DNA from: Podarcis tiliguerta
Lineage: Eukaryota
NCBI GenBank assembly: GCA_965153285.1
Contig: OZ229110.1
Strand: one strand, 5' to 3'
Length of the DNA: 64,000 nucleotides
Shown: positions 52,101 to 55,100 of the stretch, piece by piece
How the letters are laid out: every line of letters begins with the position of its first letter
Position numbering within the stretch: the first letter of the stretch is position 1
Program-made: the position numbers

Positions 52101-55100
52101 CACACCCTAGCTATCAAATCTTCATCTTATCACACATATTTTCTATTGTTCTCACTGAGATATGAATGTGCTTATACATTGAGCCACTATTTTGAGGGTT
52201 AAGGATGTGCCCATTTTAAGCCTTTCTGTTTTTCTGGAGTAGAGCAGATTAGGAGTGTGTGCATGTCTGTGTTGCATGTTTGAGAGCATGTAGGTGGCGA
52301 ACAAACTGCAGAAATGATTGGCACTCATCAAAGAACTCAAGTGCACATAAACATTCATGCTCCCTACTCTGCGACCCTAGTTTGTATTCCAATAACAACC
52401 CATTTATCTCAGAAGAACTTCATGAGTGAGAGTCTATCCTCTGAGTTCAAAGAGATAAAAAAATATATGTGTGCGTGCATGTGTGTTTGTAGGGTTTATT
52501 TTTCCTGACTCCCTTTCCTGCTCTATGGAAGCTTGGGGATCTATTACTGACTGTAAAAGAGAGTGTGTTGTTTAAAATCTGAAACTTGCAAGTGGCACTG
52601 AGAGCTTGCTCACTTGTCATCTGTTTGAGGATTTAAAGAAGTTGGATAATTGTGTGTTGTTTTTTTCTGCAGAGAAGACAGACTCCCTCCTTTTTTCCCA
52701 TCCCACCCACAACTTCTTGCACTTCAAATTATTCTTTAGAGGGGAAATTAAGCAAGAATCATGAACACATGCTGTACCTGTCGAGAGAGCAAACCTGTCA
52801 ACAAGCCTAGGACATCTCACTCTAAATTTAAAATGATGGGTGAATTGATTCAGTTGAGCAGATTTCAAGACTGGTTTGACCTAAACCCCAGACATCTCAC
52901 TTTTACGTGTTCAGAGCTACGCAGTGACAATCAGGCATTGTCCTTTGTATAGTCACATTCTGGAAGATAATGGATTTTGTATTCCTTCATGTAGCACTGA
53001 GACTTCAGTTAGTATATTATTTGAGAGTCTAAAAAGGCCATTTAAGTCATTGTTGGTCTTTTAATCACGGTCTGTTAATGCCTGACCTAAAGATAGGACA
53101 TGATGTTCTAACAGTCCTGGTTCATTAAGACAGTATGAAATAACGAAGATGGGCAATGCCACTATTCCATATTTTGTTACTACTCTGGAGCTGATAAAGC
53201 AGCAAGCACTTCCTCTGACATCCTTCCTTCCATTCAGTCAAGTACACTTTGGCTTACTTCTTAATTCTAAAGGCTTTTCTAGGTACCAACACAGAAAGTT
53301 GAACAGCAAGTATGTCATAGCAGAGGTTCATCACAGCATGGGAGCTTGCTACAAGGGTAGTTAATATATGTCACTGCTGGTGGTGGGTCATCCATGTTGA
53401 TCCTATAAGTTTATTTAGAGGAACAGAGATCAGCAGAGATACCTGGGGCAAAGTAGTTCAAATGTAGATGCTGGGTGTACCAATTCAACATGTCTATTGC
53501 TCACAAATACCTGTGGCTTGGGGTGCCTTAAGTGTCCTTCTACTTGGGCAAGAATTTTTATTTTATTCTACTGTTTCATAAAATTTATATACCACTTGAC
53601 TGTAAAAAACAACAACCCTCAAAGTGGTTCCACTGTCGAACAGCTCTTACTGTCAGGAAGTTCTTCCTAATGTTTAGATTCCACCTAAACATTAGGAAGA
53701 ACTTCCTGACAGTAAGAGCTGTTCGACAGTGGAATTTGCTGCCAAGGAGTGTGGTGGAGTCTCCTTCTTTGGAGGTCTTTAAGCAGAGGCTTGACAACCA
53801 TATGTCAGGAGTGCTCTGATGGTGTTTCCTGCTTGGCAGGGGGTTGGACTCGATGGCCCTTGTGGTCTCTTCCAACTCTATGATTCTATGATTCTATGAT
53901 TCTAAATAACCTTGTAGGATCTATGTTACTCCTAGTAGAAGAGTGGAGACCTTAGCTAATAGTTAGCTGTTAGGTGAATCCACTTGATCTGAGACTGAAA
54001 AGAACTTGCCCTAGGTTCAGTTTTCAATTGTTTAGCTCTTCCTTGGACCATACAGGTTTTTCCCTACCATACCAGACATATTGTTTCAGTGCATCCAATA
54101 TATGAATAAGATGCTGCCATATTCACTTCTTGCCAACCCATGTACAAGCTGGGTGCTGCACTTTTGTGGAAGCCTAATCTGCAACATTGCTCTGAGAGTT
54201 CAGGCTCAAAAACTGAAGGTGCATGCATTTGGGGTTAGGTGAAATTTAGTTATCAAATCAACATTGATCTGTTTCGAAGAAGCTGCCATCCCTGGATTCT
54301 GAATGCTAACATCTGTTGAGAGTGTGCATCTGTTCAGTACCGCAAGCTTGTAAACAGATTTGGGAAACTGTCTAGGATTCATCTTTGCAATGCAACACAT
54401 TATCTGAGAGCAGATTTCAGTAGAAGGCTATATAAAAACAACAACCTCAGTAACCAATTAAGGAGTTTGTACACATCTTTCTTCATCCACTTCCACTATA
54501 AGCATGTTGTTCTGATTTGAAATGAAATCAATGTGGTGAACTTAATTTATATTGTTGTTGTTATGTGTTCCGGAACATTATGGGTTGTGTACAATAGGTT
54601 TCATTGACTGAGATTTCTGGGGAGGGGGGAATGTTAAAGACTTGTGTAAATTCCATACATGTTACTGGCATATTGTGGATTTTCAGTTGTCTGTGAGTGG
54701 TACTCCCCTTTGCTCTCTCTCTGGCCTCTCCAGTGCGAGTTGCTAGGAATACAGGAAACTATTGTATACTGACTCACACCATTGGTCCATCAAGCTTAGT
54801 ATTGCCTACACTGACTGGCAACAACTCTCTAGAATTTCAGAAAGGGAACCTTTCCAGTCTTGCCTGGGAAGTTCCATCACTGAGACACAGCCTGAGTCTG
54901 AGTTATTAATAGGACACAGTGCTGGAGTGATCCTCTGCCATATATGAAAGTTGTTAGGGGGCGAGGGGGGAATTGTTATGACAATGACTGGCTTAATACT
55001 GGTATCTCTTTCCTAGTCTAAATAAGTGTGCGTTAAATAATCCTCTCTCCCCATTTTACAACCTGTGCAGGGCAAGAGGGTAGCTTTTGCTCTTCCTTCC

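What the first reader, a model, noticed from the sequence alone, without database searches (positions are those of the whole stretch)
53628..53734. Perfect 50-bp fold-back palindrome at the 5' junction of a young CR1
Seen: 53628-53677 is the exact reverse complement of 53685-53734, with a 7-nt loop (ATTCCAC). The inverted arm duplicates sequence already in the sense copy, unlike typical L1 twin-priming inversions, which mostly invert upstream, non-overlapping sequence. No TSD is visible, and the host tail sequence stops abruptly at ...AAAGTGGTT, sharing TT with the arm. Inference: snap-back self-priming of the cDNA, or a template switch during CR1 integration, resolved by end joining. The result is a cruciform-capable DNA palindrome and a 50-bp dsRNA stem in the BRSK2 pre-mRNA.
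Basis: partly seen in the sequence, partly recalled or inferred. Interest (0 to 1): 0.65.

Follow-up and report, generated by a model that had tools for sequence, protein, structure and literature searches.

The report
Snap-back palindrome at CR1 end
A short, recently inserted lizard CR1 retrotransposon fragment carries a perfect 50-base inverted copy of its own first bases, most likely because the new DNA copy folded back and copied itself during insertion, a junction type already seen in experiments with another retrotransposon.

Summary
The palindrome is real. Positions 53628-53677 are the exact reverse complement of 53685-53734, with a 7-nt spacer. It is the longest perfect inverted repeat in the window; shuffled sequence gives 10-11 nt.

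The right arm and spacer are colinear CR1. Positions 53676-53816 encode the last 47 residues of a 947-aa Podarcis CR1 ORF2, 47/47 identical to six database proteins. A 3' UTR and an 8-nt microsatellite tail follow, ending near 53903.

The left arm is the only extra sequence. It lies wholly inside the sense copy, does not continue as an antisense CR1, and no TSD is present. Both junctions allow 2-nt microhomology.

Best reading (about 0.58): the cDNA 3' end snapped back on itself, was extended about 50 nt, and was then joined to the upstream target. This junction class is documented for avian R2 proteins in human cells (PMC11371274, PMC11204384).

Twin priming with full overlap, later break repair and assembly error remain possible. 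No reads, empty allele or genome survey were available.

The BRSK2 context could not be verified: none of 789 ORFs matched a kinase domain.

This is a new natural example of a known kind, of modest interest.

The parts
53628..53677 (-). Left arm: an extra 50-nt inverted copy, antisense CR1, of positions 53685-53734. The outer 2 nt (53628-53629) and inner 2 nt (53676-53677) could equally belong to the neighbouring segment (microhomology).
   Evidence: 50/50 complementary. In one search the family ORF2 matches the minus strand at 53686-53627 (aa 901-920) and nothing further upstream.
53678..53684 (+). The 7-nt spacer, or hairpin loop. It is colinear CR1 coding sequence (part of the R-F-H codons), not filler. 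It is also the reverse complement of 53729-53735.
   Evidence: family proteins read ...QERRFHLNIRKNF....
53685..53734 (+). Right arm: part of the sense CR1 copy, and the template of the inverted arm.
53676..53903 (+). A 5'-truncated sense CR1 fragment of about 228 bp: the last 47 codons of ORF2, the stop codon, the 3' UTR and the tail.
   Evidence: aa 901-947 of the 947-aa P0047, 97.9%. (47/47 identity to 6 Podarcis proteins). (76% identity to the older copy at 26135-26321; 42/42 to 61794-61835).
53676..53819 (+). ORF2 C-terminal coding remnant with its stop codon. The codon before it (53673-53675) reads F where the family has R, which marks the 5' limit of the sense copy.
53877..53904 (+). 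The 8-nt microsatellite tail (3.5 units), the 3' end of the CR1.
   Evidence: TRF: period 8, 100% matches.
53620..53627 (+). The last 8 nt of the upstream flank. Positions 53623-53627 are the reverse complement of 53630-53634, a mini fold-back across the outer junction, and are identical to 53727-53731. Its origin, whether target DNA or templated, is uncertain.
   Evidence: chance 0.0015 for that exact 5-mer, noticed post hoc; the alternative 'continuation' reading has P = 0.07.

Best explanation
This is a 5'-truncated insertion of a young Podarcis-type CR1 LINE whose 5' junction was made by snap-back synthesis.

Proposed steps:
1. Target-primed reverse transcription started at the microsatellite tail and copied about 228 nt of CR1 RNA. 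This step is inferred from what is established for LINEs.
2. The 3' end of the first-strand cDNA left the RNA at about 53676.
3. Its last two bases paired with a complementary dinucleotide 7 nt back on the same strand. The end was then extended about 48-50 nt using the cDNA itself as template. This produced the inverted arm and left the 7 nt as a loop.
4. The new 3' end was joined to the upstream target end, with at most 2 nt of microhomology and no target-site duplication.
5. Fill-in of the other strand fixed a 107-bp perfect hairpin-forming palindrome.

Shown: the exact anatomy, the CR1 identity of arm and spacer, the absence of any further antisense CR1, the absence of a TSD, and the possible 2-nt overlaps.

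Inferred: the order of events, that it happened during integration, and which polymerase made the fold-back copy (the CR1 reverse transcriptase or a host repair polymerase such as Pol theta).

The locus has no evident function. If transcribed it gives a 50-bp perfect RNA duplex. As DNA it can in principle extrude a cruciform.
For: (1): a perfect 50-nt inverted repeat with a 7-nt spacer, far beyond chance.

(2): spacer plus right arm plus downstream sequence are one uninterrupted CR1 3' end (aa 901-947 of a 947-aa family ORF2; 47/47 identity to 6 of 120 listed proteins). Only the left arm is extra, and it lies wholly inside the sense copy, at offset +7 to +56 from the spacer's first base.

(3): there is no antisense CR1 coding or tail upstream of 53627, so the arm is not a second element.

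(4): the family has R where the window has F at 53673-53675. This puts the sense start at 53676-53678. The shared AG at 53676-53677 is what a 2-nt fold-back primer would leave. The older copy at 26100-26120 also has AGA at the homologous codon.

(5) Literature, passages read. PMC11371274 and PMC11204384 define a 'snap-back' category of 5' junctions in R2-protein-mediated insertion: the cDNA 3' end primes synthesis complementary to the cDNA, and a junction with upstream DNA follows. PMC12222951 also lists snap-backs among R2 integration outcomes. PMC11761039 describes a snap-back structure of a related reverse transcriptase in which two 3' nucleotides pair with two upstream template residues.

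(6) PMC4245944 (passages): 5' inversions were seen only with L1 in human cells, apart from one Nimb-2_DR insert. None were seen with the L2-clade ZfL2-1. L1 inversions go with 10-20 bp TSDs. Here there is no TSD, which speaks against twin priming.

Against: Sequence alone cannot fix the order of events.

- Twin priming with complete overlap gives the same final sequence. So does a later double-strand break repaired by snap-back synthesis.
- There is no empty allele, no orthologous locus, no reads and no genome-wide survey. No vertebrate genome collection was on hand.
- A 2-bp primer with a 7-nt loop is not stable by itself and needs an enzyme that tolerates it.
- The snap-back class was demonstrated for R2, not for CR1.
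- Only 3 CR1 copies are in the window, and 1 of 3 shows such a 5' arm. That says nothing about frequency.
- A search of the protein collection with the flank-plus-arm part of the read-through ORF found no candidate, so no independent copy of the junction was seen.
- Two details are unexplained. The spacer is the reverse complement of 53729-53735. The 5 nt before the outer junction mirror the first arm bases.
Confidence: 0.58

Rival explanations
1. Twin priming with complete overlap. The upstream target 3' end annealed by about 2 nt to the CR1 RNA at 53733-53734 and primed a second, 50-nt cDNA. The first cDNA also copied the same stretch and 5-7 nt more. The two cDNA 3' ends then paired through 2 nt and were filled in.
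For: It gives exactly the observed sequence, with 2-nt overlaps at both junctions. According to PMC2912911 (passages), about 70% of 5'-inverted L1 copies show microhomologies of 2-5 bp. Twin priming is the accepted origin of 5' inversions, which make up about 31% of lineage-specific L1 insertions in that paper.
Against: The inverted segment lies wholly within the sense segment, so the same RNA stretch would have to be copied twice and the second cDNA fully displaced. There is no TSD, whereas L1 inversions go with 10-20 bp TSDs. No 5' inversion was seen for the L2-clade ZfL2-1 in two cell types (PMC4245944, passages). The original twin-priming paper could not be read, so the range of junction duplications reported there is unchecked.
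Confidence: 0.15
2. A post-integration rearrangement. A longer CR1 copy suffered a double-strand break. One resected 3' end snapped back on a 2-nt inverted repeat and was extended about 50 nt (synthesis-dependent MMEJ, or Pol-theta-type repair). It was then joined to an upstream end, deleting the CR1 5' part and some flank.
For: PMC5728401 (passages) describes snap-back SD-MMEJ: inverted primer repeats as short as 2 nt, synthesis on the same strand, then annealing to the other end, with the insert becoming part of a longer inverted repeat. That is the same footprint as here. The absence of a TSD also fits.
Against: In that work the secondary structures form within about 30 nt of the break and synthesis is described as non-processive; 50 nt is long. 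Such an event at one given 228-bp element is a priori far rarer than a junction variant made at every one of tens of thousands of CR1 integrations. PMC11303007, Table 1, counts about 24,000-25,000 truncated CR1 of 500-2,500 bp in each of two Podarcis genomes. That prior is my inference, not a measurement.
Confidence: 0.13
3. An assembly or sequencing artefact: a fold-back chimeric read or a consensus error.
For: Perfect identity of the arms. No read data or second assembly could be consulted. The protein-collection search with the junction ORF found nothing.
Against: The palindrome is 107 bp, lies internal to a 64-kb gap-free stretch, and sits exactly at a biologically meaningful boundary, the 5' end of a truncated LINE, with a spacer that is colinear CR1 sequence. 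As far as I recall, fold-back read artefacts give kilobase-scale inverted duplications at read or contig ends.
Confidence: 0.06
4. Two independent CR1 insertions head to head, the antisense one later reduced to 50 nt by deletion.
For: CR1 copies are abundant.
Against: A LINE insert always keeps its 3' end. Here the antisense piece is an internal 50 nt with no tail and no further CR1 similarity upstream. It is 50/50 identical to, and starts 7 nt from, the sense copy's own 5' end.
Confidence: 0.02

Closest known systems
'Snap-back' 5' junctions of R2-protein-mediated (PRINT) insertions in human cells (PMC11371274; PMC11204384; also listed in PMC12222951)
   Same: [quoted passage not shown] It is explained there as the cDNA 3' end priming synthesis on the cDNA before joining to upstream DNA. 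It occurs with 5'-truncated inserts.
   Different: Those are engineered R2 (site-specific, RLE endonuclease) insertions scored in reads from cultured cells. Here it is a fixed or germline copy of a CR1-clade (APE endonuclease) LINE in a lizard genome. The arm, loop and microhomology lengths of the R2 cases are in extended data and figures that I could not see.
L1 5' inversions by twin priming (Ostertag and Kazazian 2001, not readable here; summarised in PMC2912911 and PMC4245944)
   Same: An inverted segment at the 5' end of a LINE insert, with microhomology at the junctions.
   Different: The classical inverted segment comes from RNA upstream of the sense part and goes with 10-20 bp TSDs. Here the segment is wholly nested in the sense part, 7 nt from its end, and there is no TSD.
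Snap-back SD-MMEJ, or Pol-theta templated insertions, at double-strand breaks (PMC5728401; PMC2943611 seen in the search listing only)
   Same: A 3' end folds back on a short inverted repeat and copies its own strand. The nascent end then joins the other side. The result is a lengthened inverted repeat.
   Different: That is a repair pathway not tied to retrotransposition, and the inserts are usually short. Here the insert is 50 nt and lies exactly at a LINE 5' end.
5' 'extra nucleotides' of L2/CR1-like LINEs (ZfL2-2; PMC2666801, PMC4245944)
   Same: Non-colinear nucleotides between the target and the 5' end of a CR1/L2-type insert. They are common (about 40%) and are attributed to template jumping.
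   Different: In the passages I read, these are described as several nucleotides of unstated origin. Here it is a 50-nt stretch whose template can be named exactly.

Membership tests
CR1-clade LINE, 3'-terminal fragment (Podarcis family) | Homology to the C-terminus of CR1 ORF2 | tested here: met
   In one search, 1039 proteins had E <= 0.001. The best Podarcis hits are reverse-transcriptase proteins, 6 of them at 100% identity and 100% coverage. In one search, aa 901-947 of the 947-aa P0047 (RT plus endonuclease domains) map to 53676-53816.
CR1-clade LINE, 3'-terminal fragment (Podarcis family) | A 3' UTR ending in an 8-nt microsatellite instead of a poly(A) tail (the feature is recalled; microsatellite 3' ends of squamate CR1 are mentioned in PMC11303007) | tested here: met
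   period 8, 3.5 copies, 100% matches at 53877-53904. The same tail is on the two other copies.
CR1-clade LINE, 3'-terminal fragment (Podarcis family) | 5' truncation with the 3' end retained | tested here: met
   Only the last 47 of 947 codons are present. PMC11303007 reports that 97% of squamate CR1 inserts are truncated.
Snap-back 5' junction (as defined for R2 PRINT inserts) | [quoted passage not shown] | tested here: met
   53628-53677 is the reverse complement of 53685-53734, directly upstream of the sense 5' end.
Snap-back 5' junction (as defined for R2 PRINT inserts) | The upstream host DNA is joined to the antisense-orientation segment | tested here: met
   a flank that is unique within the window abuts the outer end of the inverted arm at 53627/53628.
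Snap-back 5' junction (as defined for R2 PRINT inserts) | Made by the cDNA 3' end during integration, before 5' junction formation | not testable with these tools
   This needs an empty or alternative allele, or de novo insertion assays.
Twin-priming 5' inversion (L1 type) | The inverted segment derives from element sequence upstream of the sense segment, with at most a small overlap or gap | tested here: not met
   The inverted segment lies wholly within the sense segment.
Twin-priming 5' inversion (L1 type) | A target-site duplication long enough to provide a priming 3' overhang (10-20 bp for L1; PMC4245944) | tested here: not met
   no shared word of 5 nt or more between the flanks, and the alignment score is below the shuffle mean.
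Twin-priming 5' inversion (L1 type) | Microhomology at the 5' junction and at the inversion junction | tested here: inconclusive
   2 nt are possible at each junction. Two nt is weak, and the pre-insertion target is unknown.
SD-MMEJ / Pol-theta snap-back templated insertion | A short inverted primer repeat next to the break, with an insert that is the reverse complement of adjacent sequence | tested here: met
   A 2-nt inverted repeat flanks the 7-nt spacer, and the insert is an exact reverse complement.
SD-MMEJ / Pol-theta snap-back templated insertion | Origin at a chromosomal break independent of retrotransposition; dependence on Pol theta | not testable with these tools
   No allele or genetic data.
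Known microRNA precursor or other Rfam family | A score at or above the family's gathering threshold | tested here: not met
   In one search, 14 matches with E <= 1, 13 of them to unrelated miRNA-precursor models on both strands and one weak SNORD14 match. The best scored 46.2 bits against a gathering score of 84. These are generic hairpin matches.

The most novel reading that the evidence does not exclude
Snap-back self-copying of the cDNA end may be a regular outcome of CR1 integration in lizards, catalysed by the CR1 reverse transcriptase itself at intrinsic short inverted repeats. Here the spacer is the reverse complement of the outer end of the duplicated segment. The genome would then be seeded with many perfect hairpin palindromes. 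These could act as raw material for hairpin RNAs (editing substrates, small-RNA precursors) and as fragile sites.
Probability: 0.15. Interest if true: 0.55.

Novelty: new member of a known kind. Interest (0 to 1): 0.3.

Why it matters
How LINE 5' ends are joined to the genome is the least understood step of retrotransposition. Snap-back junctions have so far been described in engineered R2 insertions.

A clean natural example in a CR1-clade element has single-base resolution: a 7-nt loop, a 50-nt copy, overlaps of at most 2 nt and no TSD. It suggests the same side reaction occurs in vivo in another LINE clade.

It also gives a precise search pattern for a genome-wide survey: an inverted copy nested within a few nt of the truncation point.

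The biological effect of this single locus is probably nil.

Tried and rejected
- **BRSK2 context.** All 789 stop-to-stop ORFs of 40 aa or more were scanned singly against Pfam: 349 of 55 aa or more at E <= 0.01 and 440 of 40-54 aa at E <= 0.005. No kinase, UBA, KA1 or RT domain matched. The only matches were weak and below cut-off, for example Ribosomal_60s at 25.2 bits against a cut-off of 28.1 on an ORF at 17363-17578. A search for six generic kinase motifs gave 5 isolated short matches, none in a kinase-like context. Exons lying in ORFs under 40 aa would be missed.
- **Paralogous 'empty site'.** The flanks 53000-53627 and 53895-54500 are unique in the window, so there is no surrogate target.
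- **TSD.** None found. One search used a wrong 3' boundary and is discarded.
- **Independent copy of the junction.** Residues 1-52 of the read-through ORF (flank plus left arm) found no candidate in the protein collection.
- **Known RNA family.** None reached threshold.
- **Left arm continuing past a 4-nt insertion.** Chance P = 0.07; rejected as not significant.
- **Off-centre opening of a hairpin-capped end (P-nucleotide type).** Rejected, because that leaves no spacer, and here 7 nt of colinear CR1 separate the arms.
- **Literature on CR1 5' junction palindromes or inversions.** Searches found no paper describing them in natural CR1 copies. PMC11303007 has no word starting with 'inver'. The library lacks most subscription journals, supplements were closed, and Ostertag and Kazazian 2001 was not held.
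- **Collections.** The genome collection is bacterial and archaeal only and was not scanned.
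Full report
**Observation.** Positions 53628-53677 are the exact reverse complement of 53685-53734 (50 of 50), separated by 7 nt at 53678-53684. Identity ends abruptly on both outer sides. In the whole window this is the longest perfect inverted repeat with a spacer of 50 nt or less. Five of five shuffles reached only 10-11 nt, and the analytic expectation for 50 nt is about 3e-24. Of six inverted pairs found window-wide, it is the only perfect one. A 167-nt stretch around it folds at -104.8 kcal/mol as RNA (z = -15.6) and -64.2 kcal/mol as DNA (z = -14.0); 0 of 200 shuffles did as well in either case. 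The window has no N.

**What the pieces are.** From 53676 the plus strand reads 47 codons and a stop. A search of the protein collection for longer proteins gave 1039 hits with E <= 0.001. Six of the 120 listed, all from Podarcis muralis or P. raffonei, are 100% identical over 100% of the query. One near-identical cluster representative (P0047; 947 aa; 196 members; reverse transcriptase and endonuclease domains) is a full-length CR1-type ORF2.

A local tblastn of P0047 against the window maps its residues 901-947 to 53676-53816. It maps residues 901-920 to the minus strand at 53686-53627, which is the left arm. Weaker matches fall on an older copy at 26019-26239. Nothing else scores below E = 0.1, and nothing antisense lies upstream of 53627.

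Downstream follow a 3' UTR and an 8-nt microsatellite, 3.5 perfect units at 53877-53904. The two other CR1 3' ends in the window carry the same tail. The sense element is therefore a fragment of about 228 bp (53676-53903) of a young family. It is 42/42 identical to the fragment at 61794-61835, and 76% identical to the old copy. The organism is a lacertid lizard of the Podarcis type, not human.

**Junction anatomy.** The family proteins read ...QERRFHLNIRKNF... (13 Podarcis proteins inspected). The spacer and the two bases before it encode R-F-H, so the 'loop' is ordinary colinear CR1 sequence. The codon before that (53673-53675) gives F where the family has R, so the sense copy begins at 53676-53678. 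The older copy has the same arginine codon at the homologous place.

The dinucleotide at 53676-53677 can therefore belong either to the sense copy or to the inner end of the inverted arm. The dinucleotide at 53628-53629 can belong either to the arm or to the flank.

There is no target-site duplication. No exact word of 5 nt or more is shared by the 42 nt on either side, and the best local alignment is below the shuffle mean; 840 of 1000 shuffles reach it (which replaces). The flanks are unique in the window.

**Mechanism.** The minus strand reads, 5' to 3': the CR1 cDNA up to the truncation point, then, after a 7-nt turn, a 50-nt copy of itself, then the target. This is what is left when the 3' end of the first-strand cDNA pairs through two bases with a site 7 nt back, is extended on its own strand, and is then joined to the upstream DNA end.

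[quoted passage not shown] PMC12222951 also lists snap-backs among R2 integration outcomes (passage read). A structural preprint on a related bacterial reverse transcriptase describes snap-back synthesis primed by two 3' nucleotides paired to two upstream template residues (PMC11761039, passage read).

I cannot say whether the CR1 enzyme or a host polymerase made the copy. The footprint is also that of snap-back SD-MMEJ at chromosomal breaks (PMC5728401, passages).

**Rivals.**
- *Twin priming.* It would give the same sequence if a second cDNA, primed by the upstream target end, covered 50 nt that the first cDNA also copied. That needs the same RNA stretch to be copied twice. In cultured cells, 5' inversions were found only for L1 in human cells apart from one Nimb-2_DR insert. 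None were found for the L2-clade ZfL2-1, and L1 inversions carried 10-20 bp TSDs (PMC4245944, passages). Here there is no TSD.
- *A later break* inside a longer CR1, repaired by snap-back synthesis. This cannot be excluded without an empty or alternative allele.
- *An assembly artefact.* This cannot be excluded without reads. A search with the flank-plus-arm part of the read-through ORF found no candidate in the protein collection.
- *Two head-to-head CR1 insertions.* This is very unlikely, because the antisense piece is an internal 50 nt without a tail.

My weights are: snap-back at integration 0.58, twin priming 0.15, later repair 0.13, artefact 0.06, two insertions 0.02.

**Unexplained details.**
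- The 7-nt spacer is the reverse complement of 53729-53735. The CR1 itself therefore carries a 7-nt inverted repeat that brackets exactly the duplicated segment.
- The 5 nt before the shared outer dinucleotide (53623-53627) are the reverse complement of the first arm bases after it, and are identical to 53727-53731. The chance for that exact position is 0.0015, but I noticed it post hoc. This may be a 5-nt microhomology between the target end and the CR1, or a second tiny fold-back. I could not build a model that uses it.
- Reading the flank as a continuation of the arm after a 4-nt insertion is not significant (P = 0.07).

**Host-gene claim.** I could not confirm that the site lies in BRSK2. 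All 789 stop-to-stop ORFs of 40 aa or more were searched one by one against Pfam without a kinase, UBA or KA1 match. Six generic kinase motifs gave only 5 isolated short matches, none in a kinase-like context. The window may be entirely intronic or intergenic. The RNA duplex exists only if the region is transcribed, on either strand. Rfam gives only sub-threshold, generic hairpin matches, nearly all to unrelated microRNA models.

**Comparison with what is known, and novelty.** The element is a member of the CR1 clade; the features I could test were met. The junction meets the sequence definition of a snap-back junction, but its timing is untestable here. It fails two defining features of twin priming: an upstream-derived segment and a TSD.

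My searches found no description of such junctions in natural CR1 copies. A recent survey of squamate CR1 does not mention inversions (PMC11303007). The library is incomplete, supplements were closed, and the original twin-priming paper was not available.

I rate it a new natural member of a known kind. It is a tidy single-locus illustration, useful as a search pattern, and of modest interest (0.3).

Noticed in passing
window 33152-33297: A second, imperfect palindrome: 63-nt arms, 87% complementary, 20 nt apart (sequence seen). It looks like a MITE-type foldback repeat (that label is recalled, not tested).
   Followed up: no
window 61794-61850: A 42-nt CR1 3'-end fragment identical to the young copy. 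An 11-nt perfect inverted copy of its internal bases (61807-61817) lies at 61840-61850, 4 nt past its tail. Window-wide, 11 nt is about the chance maximum, but the position next to a CR1 junction is curious.
   Followed up: partly
window 26019-26325: An older, degraded CR1 3' end on the plus strand, 76% identical to the young copy, with in-frame stops and the same 8-nt tail.
   Followed up: partly
window 53678-53684 and 53729-53735: An intrinsic 7-nt inverted repeat of the CR1 sequence that coincides with the spacer and with the outer end of the duplicated segment. No explanation was found.
   Followed up: partly
window 40345-40456: An inverted repeat of 27 nt, 93% complementary, 58 nt apart.
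   Followed up: no
window 17363-17578 (minus strand): An ORF with a below-cut-off match to the acidic tail of 60S ribosomal proteins (E = 2.4e-5; 25.2 bits against a cut-off of 28.1), together with three other weak matches to different families on the same ORF. Probably low-complexity acidic sequence.
   Followed up: no
whole window: None of 789 ORFs of 40 aa or more reaches a Pfam gathering score. The 64 kb look free of long coding exons.
   Followed up: yes
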